Shown here: positions 12,429-21,901 of the stretch, piece after piece
How positions within the stretch are numbered: position 1 is the first letter of the stretch
How the letters are laid out: each line of letters begins with the position of its first letter
Assembly (NCBI GenBank): GCA_963693365.1
Contig: CAVNZM010000010.1
Location: 5,090,060-5,154,059, forward strand
Length of the DNA stretch: 64,000 nucleotides
Source: Amoebidium appalachense
Lineage: Eukaryota > Protista > Ichthyosporea
Direction of reading: 5' to 3'
Program-made: the position numbers and the translations under genes
Notes under the pieces: generated by a model
The model's database searches: none
What the model was told of the DNA's origin: nothing
The model's input: the letters and a program-made list of their open reading frames with translations, nothing else

Positions 12429-13067
12429 TTAAGGGGGATATATCGGTGGGGCGGGCCGGGGGGTCCCCCGGTTAAGCTAATTCGTGATCACGTACCAATC
12501 GGCATGCCGGATTGATCACTCATTGGAAAAAGTTCTGATAAAGATCGGTGAGCCAGATGACCAATGGAATGCATTTAATGAAATGACGTATTGCCGGTTT
12601 TGTATTTTCGGTGTAAGGCCTTGCATGAAAAAACGGTCTCAACGAGCAACAAACATGTTGATAATTGTTTATATATATATATATATCTAGTGCTCTATAC
12701 AAAGCAAAACACTATTACTAATGTCGTTTGTGATACCTTCTCTATTGATTACTGAATTTACTTAGTCAAGCAGGAACAAGAGAGGGCGAATAAAGAACCG
12801 GTTTGTATAGAGCACTAGAGGATATAAAAAAATGAATTTTGAGCCCACATGTTGGGGGGGTCCATCCCGAACCTTGCCCAGCATTTTGCACGGAAAATAA
12901 AACAAATCGGCAATCATCTAAGTTTACAAAATGTCTCCCATTGGTCATCTGGCTCCCGGATCTAGGATGCTTTTCTTATCAGTGATCATTCGGCGCACAG
13001 ATTGGATCGTGATCACGCACGCCTTTAACCGCCGGCCAGCCGCACGGTCCCGCACCGGTATATCCCT
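12429..13067. mobile_element. Non-autonomous DNA transposon (MITE) with long imperfect inverted repeats; TTAA-GGG termini, Kolobok-like
   Basis: Left end TTAA-GGGGGATATATCGGTG and right end CACCGGTATATCCC-T. Internal inverted matches: GAGCCAGATGACCAATGG (12550-12567) with CCATTGGTCATCTGGCTC (12938-12955), and 12484-12520 with 12981-13016. No ORF. The superfamily is inferred from the termini only. Confidence 0.65.
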
Positions 13068-13425
13068 TAGGGGATGGTTTGCCGGCAATGTGATCGGGGG
13101 ATCCAATTGATCGGAATCGATCAAATTCCAGTCAGTGAGCCGGCTAAAATTGTCACTTTCGGGGCTTTTGATGACAGCTGTCTAAGTTTCGACGCTAGAT
13201 CCAGAGAGAATGACTGCATAAATATGCCCTGAAAATAGAATCCTACTAATAAAGTGGGGGGTAATTACATAATTTTTTTTATAATTAAAGCCCCTCGTAA
13301 GGTCTTATTATACCCTCTATATAACTGCTCTCTATAATTGCTTATGCTAAGTCTGGCGTCTATGTCATGGTAGACTAGCCGGACATAGGTCAGCCCGAGC
13401 AGACTGCCTAAAAAAATATAGTCCC

Positions 13426-14030
13426 TGTCGTGGCAACAAACAGAGTGTATATGAACTACTCTAACTATCTGCACGCTTAAAGGGGCTCGAAACCGTGTAT
13501 ACGTATAAACTTTTCTTTGAGTTGGGTGGGAAGCGAGTTTTTTGTGTTCTGAGAAGAACTTCCAAAAGCCCGCGACCCCGCGAGACACTTCACAGACACG
13601 CGGCCCACTGGCCAGACAAATACCACAGTGACATTCAGCCAATCACAACACTCCCTCCCCCACAGACTACACGCACTCCACACCATTGGCTACCGCGACC
13701 TCAGACACCCCTACAGCACTACAACACGTACACACGTTTACTCACAATACATATAAGCATACACACACGCGAGCAGGCAACATGGGTCTCGCCACGCACA
13801 CAGCAAGAAGCAATACAACATTTAACATGGAGAGTACGCAGAGGCATGGGGCATGCACGCGCGCACCAAACAATCAGCCGCCGCTGCATCAGATTCTCCC
13901 CATACCACTGATTAATCTCCTCATACCCCATTTAGACCCCGGCATCACTATGCAAGAAAACCCCCGAAATTAACTCACCAAAACACAAAATATAGAAGTA
14001 AACTAATACGAATCAGCTCAGCACATGACA
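13426..14030 (-). repeat. 3' LTR of the non-autonomous LTR element
   Basis: Direct repeat of 15518-16122 with TG...CA ends and adjacent PPT. Confidence 0.9.
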
Positions 14031-15517
14031 ACTCCCCCCTCGCACAGAAAATAACTGAGTTCCACCTCAGTAAAAACTACCTAAAAACAAAATAAAGTTA
14101 TGTGCTGAGCGACTACAACTACCGCTACCCATGCAGGAAGCAACATTTAACATATAACATAAAACATATACATACATCCACACACCACCCCACCATGGTT
14201 AATACCCAACCCAACCCCAAAACAAGGATAAGAACCGCCACTGACGTTGCCCTGTAGATGCACCTCTGCCCCCGTCCACAACCTGCACCCAAAACCCCAT
14301 GCCCCTGGCACAATGTTATATCGAGTGGAACATAGCAACAGACATGATAACAGACACCATCCATACAACCACACTCAGCATGCCCCATCCACAAAGAATT
14401 CCTAGCAAAACCTAACATGCCACTGACGAACACCTCCAGACTCATGTGACGTACACCTCCAGACTCTCTTGCTGGCCATTCCTCTACCCGACAAAGACTC
14501 CTACTACGTAGGTCCCGGTGGTTTGGGAATGCCTCCGCCCCAACCGTGCCCTACCCAGCGGTGTGTCTAAGGCCTACTGCTGCACTGGGCACCACAACAC
14601 TACTCAACAACACTACGGGCAGCCACTCCAAAGGGCCTCAACACCAGGCCCAGGGCAGCCACTCCAAGGGGCCTCAGCACCAGGCCCTTTGACGACGGGG
14701 GTTCACAACAGTGGGGGCCTGCCACTGCCATGACTACACTTCGACCCCCCCCCAGCCCCCTCGTCAGAGGGCCGAGCTCCCAGACAGCAGCAGGACTTTC
14801 TATTCCACTGACCCTAATCACACACGTCGCCAACACAGGACTCATACACACGTCGAAAACGCCAGGCACCAGTAGAAAACTCGCCGAAAAATAACACCAC
14901 ACAACAGTTACTCCCATAGTATTACAACAACAACAACCCAAGAGATGGCCTACCCCCTAATAAAACCTTCATACCAGCAACACGGTCACCGACGTCCCTG
15001 CCCCCCACGACGGGGCTGTTTACACCACGCGTTGCCCCCGCTCCTTGCAGTTGTCGCAGGTGCACACCTGGGAAAGAGCCTGGCGCCGGCTCTTGCTGTC
15101 CCGCCCAAAGACGCTAGTCTGGCCCATCTGTTATCCCGTTGTGGCCGTGGCTGGTAGGGCTGGCAGTAGCGCCGTGGGGAGGGTGACCGCCGCCGGTCCC
15201 CTCTGAGGCCTCTGCTGGGCAAACGGCCCTGAGCTTGCTAAGTCACCTAGGGAGGTCAAGGTCCTTAGCGAGGACTAAGTCCCCTGTGATACTAGTCCTA
15301 CTGCTCATGTTGCCTATGCCAACTGTTGCTAGCTGTAGGTCTGTGTGTGCGTATGTTTCTTCTACCTCTAACCGTCGAAAAAGGCCTAAGACAAAACCAC
15401 TCATAACCGCTAGGCGTGAAAAAAAAAAAAAACTAGGGGTGAAAGCAACAGCCCAGAAGGACTAACAGTGCGTGTGCCCCCTCCCTGCAAAAAACTGCAG
15501 AGAAAGGGGGTGTAGCT

Positions 15518-16122
15518 TGTCGTGGCAACAAACAGAGTGTATATGAACTACTCTAACTATCTGCACGCTTAAAGGGGCTCGAAACCGTGTATACGTATAA
15601 ACTTTTCTTTGAGTTGGGTGGGAAGCGAGTTTTTTGTGTTCTGAGAAGAACTTCCAAAAGCCCGCGGCCCCGCGAGACACTTCACAGACACGCGGCCCAC
15701 TGGCCAGACAAATACCACAGTGACATTCAGCCAATCACAACACTCCCTCCCCCACAGACTACACGCACTCCACACCATTGGCTAAAGCGACCTCAGACAC
15801 CCCTACAGCACTACAACACGTACACACGTTTACTCACAATACATATAAGCATACACACACGCGAGCAGGCAACATGGGTCTCGCCACGCACACAGCAAGA
15901 AGCAATACAACATTTAACATGGAGAGTACGCAGAGGCATGGGGCATGCACGCGCGCACCAAACAATCAGCCGCCGCTGCATCAGATTCTCCCCATACCAC
16001 TGATTAATCTCCTCATACCCCATTTAGACCCCGGCATCACTATGCAAGAAAACCCCCGAAATTAACTCACCAAAACACAAAATATAGAAGTAAACTAATA
16101 CGAATCAGCTCAGCACATGACA
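15518..16122 (-). repeat. 5' LTR of the non-autonomous LTR element
   Basis: Direct repeat of 13426-14030 with TG...CA ends. Confidence 0.9.
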
Positions 16123-16305
16123 GTCCCCAGCCAGAGGCTCGCACATGGGTGCAATAGGTCCATGGCCAAGGGCTTACCCAGATCGGCCAAAACTTTTGAC
16201 ATTGCCGCTGGGGGACAGCGACTGCTATATCTTATGACATCTATGTAGTACCGCCTGGGATAGAACAACCCTATGTTGAAACTACCCTGAGATAGAACAA
16301 CCCCC

Positions 16306-16336
<31 letters not shown>

Positions 16337-16367
16337 AAAAAAAAAAAAAAACGTTCGATCCCCGACC

Positions 16368-16405
<38 letters not shown>

Positions 16406-16613
16406 AGTCGCAAAACACTGTCTTCTTGTAGCCAGTACAGTACAATGGTGCAGTGTAGTCGCAGCCCAGGCCATGCATGGCAGATGTCGGTCGACGTCCG
16501 TGCTGGCGCAGGCACATGAATTCGAGCGCTACATAACCCTTTAAATGCTAGCTATATGCAGTGTGTCCCTTGGTGCTCATGGGGTTTCCCCCCTTTTTTT
16601 ACCCTTTTAAGAA

Positions 16614-16929
16614 AATTTGTGTCCCTCTTGATCACTCCATATAACATCTCCATCTTGCAGTTGCTAGCCGGGCATGGTGGCTTTCCAACTATTCAACTAC
16701 TACCTTTGCGCAATCACTGTGGCACTATGTTTGCGCCATCACCTACGATAGACCTACCTGGGGGGTTTACGCTGTTTACTAGAGGCAAAGAGAAACCAGT
16801 CTCAGGTATGGGGGGGTTTTTGCTCGGAATATCCCTTTAGATAGAACGACCCCCAAGGGGGGAAACGAAGGCCCTGGTTGTTTTAGCCCAGGCGTAACTG
16901 TATACCATACTAAACAAAAGATGGGTGCC
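16614..16929 (+). repeat. Left copy of 316-bp direct repeat flanking the copia element
   Basis: AATTTGTGTCCCTCTTG...AAGATGGGTGCC, identical by eye to 20505-20820 (offset 3891). Confidence 0.92.
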
Positions 16930-17282
16930 TGTCGAACAGGATAGCCATCCGGTATGCCCTGCGTTAGCGTAGCACTAGTGATCGGGAATATTCGAGATAT
17001 TCGGGATAAACTGGTGGATAGGTTCACGATAGATCAGGATAGATCTAGAAGAGTCTAGAAGAATCTATTGGAGTGTTTTGATTGGTAGCGACTAGATCCA
17101 TAGCGGCGGGTAGACCAATCGGGAATAGTATGTAACATTCCAGTGAGCCAGACCACAAGTATATAAAGGTCCCGGTGGGCCAGTCAATGTAAGTCAGCAA
17201 ATAATAAAGTCTCACAGAGAAACCTCTAAGTTACGGTTACGGACCCAGTACAACGCTACGATCAAGCGACTGTTGAGACAAG

Positions 17283-19958
17283 ATGGGAAGAGCAAAATGT
17301 CCAGTTCCCATGTATGAAGGAGAAGGCAAGGGCAAAATCTCCTACTCAATGTGGGCCATGCGCATGAAGTGCTTCCTCGAGGGCGAGGAATTATGGTACA
17401 CGATTGAAGACGTGGCTCCTGAAGTGATAGGAGAGGACGGCGAACCGGTGGAGCAACCTCCGGTGGAGATCGACCCCTTGGATCAGAAGAAGGCGACTTC
17501 CTACCTGGTGGAGACACTAGGTGATGTACCTGCAAGCCTGTGTCGGCGAGCTATTGCCGTAGGAAATCCCAAGGACATATGGGATACGGTAGCATCATAC
17601 GCTGCGCGCAACACAGATGAGCACAAGAGAATGTTGATTCAACAGTTCTGGCGTGCTGATATGATGCCGACGGAAAGCGTGCTGGAGTATGCGGCCCGCC
17701 TGGAGTGCATTGTGCAGGATCTTCTTCATATCGATCCCAATGGAGTTAGTGAGGACATGGTTGCCGAGAAATTCCTGGACGGTGTAGGCGCTGACGACCG
17801 ATTCCGCACCGACGTTAGGACCATTCAAGCTTTACCAGCAGCTGAGAAGACAATGGAAAAGATAATCGCCAAGCTGCGTGGTTTTGAGGAGAACGAGGCT
17901 GCAAGGGAACAGCAGCGGGTGATGATGACCAGCACCCAATGGCGCGGCGGTACGCCACGACAGGACACCGGCAAGCCGCGCGTGACTGACATATCCAAGG
18001 TGGAGTGTTACAAATGTCACAAGTTTGGGCACTACAAGTCACAGTGTCCAAAGAAGAAGAAGGGCGGCAATCGCGGCGACAAGGCGAAGCAGAACGGAGC
18101 TTCCAAGGAGATACTCGCCATGGCGGTAAACAGCGGACTCCCTTCTTCAACTGAGTGGTATTGGGACTGCGGCGCAACCTCCCATGTCACATGCCGAAAG
18201 GACTGGATGGAAGACTTCCGGTCGATCACACCCAAACCCGTCGCTCTGGGTAACACCCCGGGTGTGATGGCGCTAGGAATAGGCGTCGTAAGATTAACAA
18301 GTGAGTTCCAGGGCAACAGCATGACATTTAGACTGCAGAATGTGCTGTACGTGCCAGCATTTGGAACTAACGTGATGTCGGCTTCAAGCGCCGGCAAGCA
18401 CGGGTTAAGAATCATCACCGACGGTCGACAGTGTACGATTGAGAGTGCCACAGATGGCCAAGTTGTGGCCCGTGGGGTAGTGGAGGGAGGCCTGTATCGT
18501 CTCCTAGTGAAACCCGTATGTGAGAGCGTGAACATGGTGACCACTGCAGTCGGCGGCAGTGGGGGTAACACCGTGTGTGAGCCGGTAAAGGGCAGCGCCA
18601 GTTTATGGCACCGGCGGTTTGGTCATGTGGCAATAAACACGCTACAGAAGATGGTTAAAGAAAACATCGTCGAGGGTCTGTGCATCGACTGCAAAACCCA
18701 GGATGACGGTGTGTGCGAGGGATGCGCGAGAGGGAAGCAAGCCCGGCTCTCTTTCAGTAAGCTACCCCGCAAGACAGCGCCAGCGAAGCTCGACAGAGTT
18801 CATTCTGATGTGGCAGGACCGTTCAACAAGGAGTCGCTGCAAGGTTCCAAGTATTATGTCACCTTCATCGACGACAAGACAAGGTTCACTACGGTGTACT
18901 TCATGAAACATAAATCCCAAGTGCATACTTACTTCAAGAAGTACAAGGCACACGTAGAGAAGCAACACGGTGCCAGCATCAAGATTCTGCGTTCCGACAA
19001 CGGGGGTGAGTACACCTCCACTGAGTTCAAGTCGTTCCTGGAAGCGTGCGGCATTGAACATGAGGCGACAGTCCCTTACACACCAGAGCAGAATGGTGTA
19101 GCAGAGAGGGCTAACAGGACCATTGTCGAGACGGCGCGCTGCATGCTGCAGTCAGCAGGCATGAGTATGGGGTTCTGGCAGCTAGCAGTACAGGCAGCTG
19201 TGTACATCAAGAACCTGACGCCAACCACAGTACTGGGTGGCATGACACCTTGGGAGGCATGGTATGGAGAGAAGCCCGATGTTAGCCATCTACGTGTATT
19301 TGGTAGCAAGGCATTTGTCCATGTGCCGAAGGACGAGCGCAGGAAGCTAGACGCCAAGAGTCGGGAGTGTAAATTCGTCGGCTACACAGGTGACAGCAAG
19401 ACGTACTTGTTGTGGGACACCGAGGCGCGCAAGACTATCGTCGGGCGAGATGTGGTGATCGACTCGGATGAATCATGCACCCCAAAGGCCGGTATTCCGG
19501 TGGTGCAAGATGAGCCAATGGAATTGCTGATGCATAAGCCAATCGGAAATCAGCAGAGCTTGGAATCGAGGAATCCAATCAGCGTCAAGAAGCAACATTC
19601 CTTTCGGAAGCCTGCAATCGGCACTGACAGTGGATATGATTCAGATGCTATCGGCGACGGCGCGGGCGAGGACAGCGGCGATTCGGACGCGGCAGGGTCA
19701 GGAGACGAGGAAGATAGTGCAGAGTTGCAGGTTGCAACCAGAAGTGCCTATCCGTCTATGACTACAAGGCGCGGTGGGACCTACGGCATCAACGCAGGTG
19801 TAGTAGAGTACCGCGACAGTATCAGCATGGCAATTGAGAGTGCTGATAGCAATGAGGATGACCCTGTGACACTGGAAGAAGCAATCTCCAGGCCAGCATC
19901 AAACACATCGACGTTCAGTACCACTACACCCGTGAGTGTGTGGAGAATGGGGATGTAG
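17283..19958 (+). CDS. Copia Gag-protease-integrase polyprotein (891 aa), truncated before reverse transcriptase
   Basis: CCHC knuckle CYKCHKFGHYKSQC; protease WYWDCGATSH; GAG-pre-integrase LWHRRFGH...CEGC; integrase DDE (HSDVAGP, RSDNGGEY, NGVAERANR); SH3-like RVFGSKAFVHVP. Ends shortly after DPVTLEEAISRP. Confidence 0.95.
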   Translation: MGRAKCPVPMYEGEGKGKISYSMWAMRMKCFLEGEELWYTIEDVAPEVIGEDGEPVEQPPVEIDPLDQKKATSYLVETLGDVPASLCRRAIAVGNPKDIWDTVASYAARNTDEHKRMLIQQFWRADMMPTESVLEYAARLECIVQDLLHIDPNGVSEDMVAEKFLDGVGADDRFRTDVRTIQALPAAEKTMEKIIAKLRGFEENEAAREQQRVMMTSTQWRGGTPRQDTGKPRVTDISKVECYKCHKFGHYKSQCPKKKKGGNRGDKAKQNGASKEILAMAVNSGLPSSTEWYWDCGATSHVTCRKDWMEDFRSITPKPVALGNTPGVMALGIGVVRLTSEFQGNSMTFRLQNVLYVPAFGTNVMSASSAGKHGLRIITDGRQCTIESATDGQVVARGVVEGGLYRLLVKPVCESVNMVTTAVGGSGGNTVCEPVKGSASLWHRRFGHVAINTLQKMVKENIVEGLCIDCKTQDDGVCEGCARGKQARLSFSKLPRKTAPAKLDRVHSDVAGPFNKESLQGSKYYVTFIDDKTRFTTVYFMKHKSQVHTYFKKYKAHVEKQHGASIKILRSDNGGEYTSTEFKSFLEACGIEHEATVPYTPEQNGVAERANRTIVETARCMLQSAGMSMGFWQLAVQAAVYIKNLTPTTVLGGMTPWEAWYGEKPDVSHLRVFGSKAFVHVPKDERRKLDAKSRECKFVGYTGDSKTYLLWDTEARKTIVGRDVVIDSDESCTPKAGIPVVQDEPMELLMHKPIGNQQSLESRNPISVKKQHSFRKPAIGTDSGYDSDAIGDGAGEDSGDSDAAGSGDEEDSAELQVATRSAYPSMTTRRGGTYGINAGVVEYRDSISMAIESADSNEDDPVTLEEAISRPASNTSTFSTTTPVSVWRMGM

Positions 19959-20065
19959 AACTTGTGTATTGCAGCACGAACAGTAACGTGGCCGACATGT
20001 GCACCAAAGCTTTAGGGAGACTTAAGTTGATGCAGCATCGGCAGGCCATCGGCATGGCTGAGTAA
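19898..20065 (+). pseudogene. Out-of-frame C-terminal RNase H remnant of copia Pol
   Basis: Translates IKHIDVQYHYTRECVENGDVELVYCSTNSNVADMCTKALG..*, containing the KHIDxxYH...ADxxTK copia RNase H motif. Confidence 0.9.
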
Positions 20066-20504
20066 GAACTACAATTAGTGTAGTGTTAATGTTCGTGTAG
20101 TAGGTGTTATATGTGTTAGTATAGTAGCATAGTTTTAGAGTTGCATCTTAGGTTTAGGTTGCATGCGGTAGATAGATAGAACACAGTGCAAGTGGGGGTG
20201 TCGAACAGGATAGCCATCCGGTATGCCCTGCGTTAGCGTAGCACTAGTGATCGGGAATATTCGAGATATTCGGGATAAACTGGTGGATAGGTTCACGATA
20301 GATCAGGATAGATCTAGAAGAGTCTAGAAGAATCTATTGGAGTGTTTTGATTGGTAGCGACTAGATCCATAGCGGCGGGTAGACCAATCGGGAATAGTAT
20401 GTAACATTCCAGTGAGCCAGACCACAAGTATATAAAGGTCCCGGTGGGCCAGTCAATGTAAGTCAGCAAATAATAAAGTCTCACAGAGAAACCTCTAAGT
20501 TACG

Positions 20505-20820
20505 AATTTGTGTCCCTCTTGATCACTCCATATAACATCTCCATCTTGCAGTTGCTAGCCGGGCATGGTGGCTTTCCAACTATTCAACTACTACCTTTGC
20601 GCAATCACTGTGGCACTATGTTTGCGCCATCACCTACGATAGACCTACCTGGGGGGTTTACGCTGTTTACTAGAGGCAAAGAGAAACCAGTCTCAGGTAT
20701 GGGGGGGTTTTTGCTCGGAATATCCCTTTAGATAGAACGACCCCCAAGGGGGGAAACGAAGGCCCTGGTTGTTTTAGCCCAGGCGTAACTGTATACCATA
20801 CTAAACAAAAGATGGGTGCC
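20505..20820 (+). repeat. Right copy of 316-bp direct repeat flanking the copia element
   Basis: Identical by eye to 16614-16929; abuts the 3' LTR directly. Confidence 0.92.
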
Positions 20821-21901
20821 TCAACCGAGGCCTACCACTCCCCCGGACAAAATTTTATTAGGTTACTACCCCCACTTTCTAATGAATTTTCATTTTTCTC
20901 CCAAACTTTATGCGGTCAATCGTCCGGGATCTACGCAGGGTTTATAGTGCAAATTGAACTCCCTCCAGGATAGTATCTGCTACACTAGCTGGCAATGTGA
21001 ACACTTTAGACTTTTTGTTGAATTCTGTTGGTCGTCACATTGAGTATTTATATGATTTTCACAGTGTTCAGGTATCTCAGTATGCACTTGTTACTGGCTA
21101 ACTCGTGAAGTTTTTATTGTCTTCTCAGTATGCCGTGCATACTTGCATATCTTTCCGTCGAATAAATCCAGTCAAAAGAAAAAAAAAAACTTTCGGACAG
21201 TTCGGCATCAATTGATCGACTGGATCGATTATGGAATTTGGTCGATCTCGGTTTGTTGCGCACCCCCAATTTTTAACTTAAATCCATCCCCTAGGTTCCC
21301 TTAAACTCAAAAAATAACTCAAACAGGTGTTCTGGGGTGAGCCTAGTAGTATGGGGAGAATTATAAACAACTCCTTATATAGCGAACTGTTGTTACATTG
21401 ATTGGTGATTGTATTTGGTCATCAGCTGACTATGTAGTTGTCCATCAACAATGAATCCGCAGAAAAAATCTTAAACCATACCCTACTGTATATTACTGTA
21501 TATAGTATTTATCATGTTATCTCTGTACATCTATAAGTGCATATAACACAATCACTTGCCGAATTGTTTTGCTGAAATGACAGCCGGCTGCTTCACCTTA
21601 TTCTCCCACCTGTTCGCAGGAATCTGCCCGATGCAATGTGAACCAATCACAACGCACCAGCCCGGAAATTCTTCTAGCCCAAAAGTATAAACACGAGCAC
21701 CATCACCGTGCGCTTTCAGTTCCGCCCCAAAAATAAAAGCAGTGACACAGAAACACGCTATTCCACCCGCCTTTTTTTAAATTTGGACACCCTAGAAAGT
21801 CAAGTCAAGTAACAAAGTGAAACGACGTTCAACAGCTAGCTAGATTACCATAACTGATATAGCTGGTAGTCTGACGCGTTTCATCATTATCAAGACGAAA
21901 A

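What the first reader, a model, noticed from the sequence alone, without database searches (positions are those of the whole stretch)
16614..20820. Copia element with a non-canonical CG U5 end flanked by a 316-bp target duplication
Seen: the structure is A-LTR-interior-LTR-A, with A = 16614-16929 = 20505-20820, and there is no 4-6-bp TSD (flanks GTGCC / AATTT). The left end is canonical TG, but both LTRs end ...AAGTTACG, not CA. Known: retroviral-type integrases need the terminal CA and normally make ~5-bp duplications for copia; att-mutant retroviral DNA can integrate with one end joined by integrase and the other by host repair, leaving large duplications. Inference: this is a natural one-ended integration. 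Because the CG is in both LTRs it predates reverse transcription, so the whole subfamily may duplicate host DNA each time it inserts.
Basis: partly seen in the sequence, partly recalled or inferred. Interest (0 to 1): 0.78.

Follow-up and report, generated by a model that had tools for sequence, protein, structure and literature searches.

The report
Copia insertion with 316-bp host duplication
A young, reverse-transcriptase-less copia retrotransposon sits between two identical 316-base copies of host DNA, most likely because this one copy went in with a faulty right end that host repair joined, a kind of accident already described for retroviruses.

Summary
The A-LTR-interior-LTR-A layout is exact in the sequence. 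Contigs of one public run (X2) branch at both ends of A and hold A at about twice the flank depth. Two other runs (X1, X15) cross A's end unbroken into plain host DNA, which fits an empty allele. So the duplication is probably real and came with the insertion. The 'CG in both LTRs' is a boundary error. G17235 is the first base of a half-tRNA(iMet) primer site (other copies read GGTTATGGGCCCAG), and the family LTR is 305 bp, ending TTAC. The G at 20504 is one extra base that comes neither from the shared LTR nor from the host. Best reading (0.62): a one-off one-ended or uncoordinated integration of a cDNA with a faulty U5 end, as described for XMRV (273 bp), HIV/ASLV and HERV-K (250 bp). The claim that the whole subfamily duplicates host DNA is unsupported, and I could not test it directly. 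What stays odd is a family of about 14-30 copies whose U5 ends in AC, not CA or TA.

The parts
16614..16929 (+). A, left copy of the 316-bp host duplication; part of it (about 16760-16835) is a high-copy repeat piece
   Evidence: exact repeat; depth up to about 30,000 in bin 16714-16870 of X1 and loose ends at 16761/16835
16930..17234 (+). 5' LTR, 305 bp, TG...TTAC; TATA-like motif at 17160, AATAAA at 17203; rare variant A at 17063
   Evidence: X15 LTR contig 16930-17234; A>T at 17063 in all four runs; motifs
17235..17248 (+). primer-binding site of the half-tRNA(iMet) type, GGTTACGGACCCAG, 12 of 14 to the canonical form
   Evidence: variants 17240T/17243G in X2, X6, X15; the motif lies in a tRNA-Met(i) antisense oligo in PMC1797187
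17283..19958 (+). gag-protease-integrase ORF, 891 aa, D-D-E motifs present, running out of frame at the deletion
   Evidence: Pfam DUF4219, Retrotran_gag_2, Pol_BBD, gag_pre-integrs, rve, SH3; 56% identical to P0001; motifs
19886..19895 (+). joint of an internal deletion removing RT and most of RNase H (P0001 residues 885-1332)
   Evidence: tblastn: residues 1-884 at 17283-19895, 1333-1391 at 19886-20062
19886..20062 (+). RNase H C-terminal remnant, another frame
   Evidence: 83% identical to P0001 1333-1391; no Pfam hit on its own
20187..20198 (+). purine-rich tract before the 3' LTR (PPT, inferred)
   Evidence: sequence; PPT|LTR contigs in X6 and X15
20199..20503 (+). 3' LTR, 305 bp, identical to the 5' LTR
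   Evidence: X15 contig 20199-20503
20504..20504 (+). one extra G, not host (16613 is A), the same letter as PBS base 1; likely a copied primer base or a non-templated base
   Evidence: junction print-out; X1 contig 16568-16718 with 0 differences
20505..20820 (+). A, right copy of the duplication
   Evidence: X2 contig starting at exactly A's first base, depth 45.5 against 23.8 for the flank

Best explanation
A non-autonomous copia element (RT and most of RNase H deleted) lies between two identical 316-bp host copies, most likely from a single faulty integration in which integrase joined the clean TG (U3) end and the U5 end, carrying one extra G, was joined 316 bp upstream by host repair or by an uncoordinated second strand transfer. 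Shown: the layout, the deletion, the 305-bp family LTR, and that the G is not a host base. Inferred: RT supplied in trans by full-length copies; the G copied from an unremoved base of the half-tRNA primer (or added without template); which end integrase joined; that the event is a one-off.
For: Exact A copies and identical LTRs point to a recent event. X2: a contig begins at exactly 16614, depth 45.5 against 23.8 in the flank, and 37.8 of extra depth begins at exactly 16901, the first 31-mer that tells A|LTR from A|host. X1 crosses both A ends unbroken (16568-16718, 20699-20835) and X15 crosses the right end (20678-21002), which fits an empty allele with one A. Both LTRs carry 17063A while contigs of all four runs read T, which fits one reverse-transcription event. 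The defect is at one end only. Precedents: XMRV 273-bp duplication with one damaged end, 1 of 15 sites (PMC2857682, passages); host-polymerase model for one-ended integration (PMC5041404, Discussion).
Against: No contig showing the LTR|A or A|LTR joint letter by letter was listed (tables were cut, and no loose end behind 17234/17235 appears in any of 4 runs), so the junction evidence is indirect. No listed piece spans the whole stretch. X2 may be the sample the window was assembled from. There is no microhomology at the right joint, although the published model usually shows some. Contig cleaning can drop low-depth branches, which weakens the empty-allele and no-G readings. Single-copy depth in X1 is assumed from A itself.
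Confidence: 0.62

Rival explanations
1. Pseudo-TSD: two independent insertions 316 bp apart on sister or homologous chromosomes recombined unequally, leaving one element between two copies of the interval.
For: It gives exactly A-element-A with unlike 5-base flanks. The family has about 14-30 copies (depth ratios). Recombination-made pseudo-TSDs are discussed for HERV-K (PMC5488345, passages).
Against: It needs two hits within 316 bp of mostly low-depth DNA. Both LTRs share a rare variant. It does not explain the non-host G, and no parental allele showed in the listed loose ends.
Confidence: 0.13
2. Integrase-independent or later event: a cDNA or circle carrying A recombined into the site, or a normal insertion was followed by a local template-switch duplication.
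For: No short TSD is left, and A contains a high-copy repeat piece.
Against: Both element ends are full length to the base, and A abuts them with no scar except one G.
Confidence: 0.09
3. One reading: the whole subfamily has an unusable U5 end and duplicates long host stretches at each insertion.
For: U5 ends in AC in the copies seen in 4 of 4 runs, whereas 16 of 18 primer sites of this type in distant copia loci follow CA or TA and none follows AC or CG. TSDs of other copies were not seen.
Against: The CG is not shared by the LTRs. X1 shows no G-branch after TTAC (chance 0.056 if 10 flanks survive in the contigs, 0.00075 if 25). The family has reached about 14-30 copies.
Confidence: 0.08
4. 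Assembly artefact, or a chimera of two haplotypes.
For: Both repeats are 100% identical, the window is rich in homopolymers and microsatellites, and no spanning piece was listed.
Against: Read-derived contigs of X2 branch at both A ends with A at 1.9 times flank depth, while a two-haplotype chimera would leave A at 1 times.
Confidence: 0.08

Closest known systems
XMRV clone C-3 provirus (PMC2857682; passages read)
   Same: 273-bp target duplication with one end lacking the conserved CA; a rare event (1 of 15 sites) in an otherwise normal family
   Different: Cell-culture retrovirus; the damaged end is U3 with a 5-bp deletion, here U5 with one extra base
ASLV U5-mutant and HIV-1 aberrant proviruses (PMC5041404; Discussion and passages read)
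   Same: One normal joint, one host-made joint, with duplication of flanking host DNA
   Different: Experimental; the aberrant end is often truncated and usually has short homology, neither of which is seen here
HERV-K (HML-2) long TSDs, 250 bp at 7p21.2 and 111 bp at 6p25.2 (PMC5488345; abstract, first quarter and passages read)
   Same: Natural, inherited, polymorphic insertion with a pre-integration allele and a duplication of similar size
   Different: Retrovirus; a word search for 'mechanism', 'aberrant' and 'integrase' found nothing in its main text
Half-tRNA-primed Pseudoviridae (Hemivirus: copia, 1731, Ty5, Osser; PMC1181622, passages)
   Same: gag-PR-IN-(RT-RH) order, primer site matching the iMet anticodon stem-loop, directly abutting the LTR
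   Different: U5 ends in AC; many copies carry a 2-mismatch primer site; this copy lacks RT
Non-canonical (non-TGCA) copia LTRs (bioRxiv 10.1101/137141; passages)
   Same: Short LTR, copia type, altered terminal dinucleotide
   Different: Those have 5-bp TSDs; 'TGAC' does not occur in the main text, and the supplementary motif table could not be seen

Membership tests
Ty1/copia | Integrase upstream of RT/RNase H in one gag-pol ORF | tested here: met
   Pfam order; RNase H tail lies downstream of integrase
Ty1/copia | Direct LTRs, PBS and PPT | tested here: met
Ty1/copia (autonomous) | Intact RT and RNase H | tested here: not met
   P0001 residues 885-1332 have no match in the window
Ty1/copia (normal insertion) | TG...CA ends | tested here: not met
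   TG...AC, plus one G at the right end
Ty1/copia (normal insertion) | 5-bp TSD | tested here: not met
   GTGCC vs AATTT (or GAATT); 316-bp duplication instead
Half-tRNA-primed copia (Hemivirus type) | PBS complementary to the tRNA-iMet anticodon stem-loop | tested here: met
   14 of 14 in variant copies, 12 of 14 here, against a tRNA-Met(i) oligo in PMC1797187; the host's own tRNA was not seen
Half-tRNA-primed copia (Hemivirus type) | RT phylogeny with copia/Ty5/Osser | not tested
   RT is missing from this copy; no tree was built
One-ended (aberrant) integration | One normal end and one defective end | tested here: met
   the family's normal right junction was not seen, so 'defective' rests on the non-host G
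One-ended (aberrant) integration | Pre-integration allele with a single copy of the duplicated DNA | tested here: inconclusive
   unbroken contigs in X1 and X15 favour it, but they are cleaned contigs, not spanning reads
One-ended (aberrant) integration | Short homology at the host-made joint (usual, not required) | tested here: not met
Subfamily-wide long duplication | Long duplications at other copies | not testable with these tools
   no genome held; no right flanks listed
hAT host element | 8-bp TSD and transposase | tested here: not met
   5 of 8 match; no long ORF in the host stretches examined

The most novel reading that the evidence does not exclude
This copia family does not encode its right-hand attachment site. 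The transcribed U5 ends TTAC directly on the primer site, and the terminal base that integrase needs (A, making CA) is added without template at each round of reverse transcription. Normal copies would read TTAC|GG at the 5' LTR and TTACA at the 3' LTR. When G is added or the primer base is kept, as here, integration goes one-ended and duplicates host DNA. Hints: no G-branch after TTAC in X1, and one X1 variant contig (depth 152, about 3 copies) runs one non-G letter past TTAC before it ends (the letter is not shown).
Probability: 0.2. Interest if true: 0.68.

Novelty: new member of a known kind. Interest (0 to 1): 0.35.

Why it matters
As it most likely stands, this is a clean natural example in a copia retrotransposon of an accident known from retroviruses, and a reminder that annotation tools demanding TG..CA and a 5-bp TSD miss such copies. 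It would matter more if the family's AC-ended U5 is completed by a non-templated base, or often misintegrates. Then the CA attachment site would be made rather than inherited, and the family would be a steady source of small host duplications. One table of junctions from the genome would decide this.

Tried and rejected
No whole genome is held, so other copies could not be tabulated. The window holds no other copy of the LTR (20-mer scan; blastn). An exact 31-base LTR search of metagenome contigs gave 0 matches. The window protein is not in the protein collection by exact look-up, and the cluster of its nearest relative P0001 (5 members) has no names. The 80 loci are distant copia elements (26-48% identity to P0001), not this family. 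In one search, 20 of 80 loci gave 22 primer-site hits, and I dropped the 4 hits with two mismatches before counting 18. X6 has no cover over A and X13 almost none; neither is evidence either way. 5 of the 22 listed runs were laid (X1, X2, X6, X13, X15). I rejected the reading 'LTR ends TTA and CG is an unprocessed dinucleotide', because the X15 LTR contig runs to C17234; low depth in X15 leaves some doubt. I also rejected 'A is part of the LTR', since the order is A-L on the left and L-A on the right. Paper searches for a non-templated or primer-derived U5 end and for atypical large duplications at LTR retrotransposon insertions gave no relevant paper in an open-licence library that lacks most older virology papers, so absence from print is not shown. 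Earlier-findings look-ups by sequence, genome and relatives were empty.

Full report
Observation. An exact-match scan gives A at 16614-16929 and 20505-20820 (316 of 316) and a second repeat at 16930-17235 and 20199-20504 (306 of 306). Between them lies an 891-aa ORF with copia gag, protease, pre-integrase, integrase and SH3 domains, 56% identical to the unnamed full-length P0001. P0001 residues 885-1332 (RT and most of RNase H) are missing, and the last 59 residues resume in another frame at 19886. This copy is non-autonomous; that it was copied by RT from full-length relatives is inferred.

The LTR boundary. No genome is held, so I used read-derived contigs of public runs (20 of 22 listed runs hold half or more of the words). 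In X2, X6 and X15 other copies read T at 17240 and G at 17243, which gives GGTTATGGGCCCAG from 17235. That string lies in a tRNA-Met(i) antisense oligo (PMC1797187, one passage), and copia, Ty5, 1731 and Osser prime from nucleotide 40 of a half tRNA (PMC1181622, passages). In distant copia loci this site follows CA in 9, TA in 7, AA in 1 and TT in 1 of 18 hits with at most one mismatch, so it abuts the LTR with no spacer. The X15 LTR contig is 305 letters and stops at C17234. So G17235 is primer site, the family LTR is TG...AC, and the match of G17235 with G20504 is not LTR identity. G20504 is not host either: the base before A is A16613, and X1 reads 16568-16718 with no difference.

Is the duplication real? 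In X2 a contig starts at exactly 16614 with depth 45.5, against 23.8 for the flank contig 16407-16597. Depth rises by 37.8 from exactly 16901, the first 31-mer that separates A|LTR from A|host. X1 is flat at 41.6 there and crosses both A ends, and X15 crosses the right end. This fits two A copies in X2 and an empty allele in X1 and X15. The limits: the joint contigs themselves were not listed, no piece spans the locus, X2 may be the source of the assembly, and contig cleaning can remove low-depth branches.

Is it family-wide? Interior depth over A or flank depth gives about 30 copies in X1 (1346 / about 45), about 20 in X2 (about 500 / 23.8) and about 14 in X15 (49.4 / 3.65) (rough). The X1 contig over the LTR/PBS joint runs unbroken from 17205 to 17502, so no 3' LTR followed by G shows there. 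If flanks were random this has chance 0.056 for 10 surviving flanks and 0.00075 for 25. Only 3 left-flank contigs were listed in X1, so the weaker figure may apply. The CG right end therefore looks particular to this copy. What normal right junctions read, and their TSDs, was not seen.

Mechanism. Both LTRs carry A at 17063/20332 where contigs of all runs laid read T, which fits one cDNA. I infer that its U5 end kept one G, most simply the copy of the first primer base (a non-templated G would match by chance about 1 time in 4). Integrase joined U3 at 16929|16930, and the U5 end was joined 316 bp upstream. PMC5041404 (Discussion read) describes this for ASLV and HIV: host polymerase extends the free 3' end on nearby DNA, and recombination leaves a duplication or a deletion. 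The short homology it usually finds is absent here, so an uncoordinated second strand transfer, as proposed for the XMRV 273-bp case (PMC2857682, passages), fits as well. Rivals are unequal recombination between two insertions (0.13), an integrase-independent or later duplication (0.09), family-wide misintegration (0.08) and artefact (0.08).

Comparison and novelty. Natural long TSDs are known in HERV-K (250 and 111 bp; PMC5488345), and non-TGCA ends are known and mostly copia (10.1101/137141, passages; its supplementary motif table could not be seen and may bear on whether TG..AC is listed). It works like a one-ended integration; the empty-allele test is favourable but indirect. It is a copia by domain order and primer site, and not a normal or autonomous insertion. 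My searches found no copia case and no paper on a non-templated U5 terminal base, in a limited library. An earlier unreviewed note on another genome (e1-9866335) reached a like verdict for a Gypsy element; it is not evidence.

Verdict. The structure is real in the sequence and probably in the genome, the CG is a misplaced boundary, and the event is likely a one-off. Interest 0.35. The open lead is the AC-ended U5 of an abundant family (novel case 0.2, interest 0.68 if true).

Noticed in passing
window 13426-16122: A second, unrelated LTR element: 605-bp LTRs (602 of 605 identical), TG...CA ends, perfect 5-bp TSD GTCCC, about 1.5-kb interior without a long ORF. It is an ordinary insertion 0.5 kb from the aberrant one.
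   Followed up: partly
window 17235-17248: X1 shows only the two-mismatch primer site (depth 1124), while X2 and X15 hold both forms and X6 only the canonical one. A mismatched site seems to have spread without being corrected from the tRNA; that Ty1 inherits its PBS from the RNA is recalled, not checked.
   Followed up: partly
window 12435-13066: MITE-like element with about 180-bp imperfect inverted ends (70% identical, E 3e-11), directly abutting the GGGGATGG end at about 13070.
   Followed up: no
window 13068-21293: Short inverted ends TAGGGGATGG / CCATCCCCTA enclose both LTR elements; no 8-bp TSD, superfamily not settled.
   Followed up: partly
window about 16760-16835 and 20976-21097: Pieces of very high-copy repeats (depth about 30,000 and 80,000 in X1, against about 45 for the unique parts of A).
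   Followed up: no
window 19896-19900: Family contigs in X1 and X15 stop at 19896 and resume at 19900, so other copies differ from the window at the deletion joint; whether the deleted form is multi-copy was not seen.
   Followed up: no
L078:239 and 5312: Two identical LTR end plus primer-site stretches about 5 kb apart, suggesting tandem copia elements sharing an LTR.
   Followed up: no
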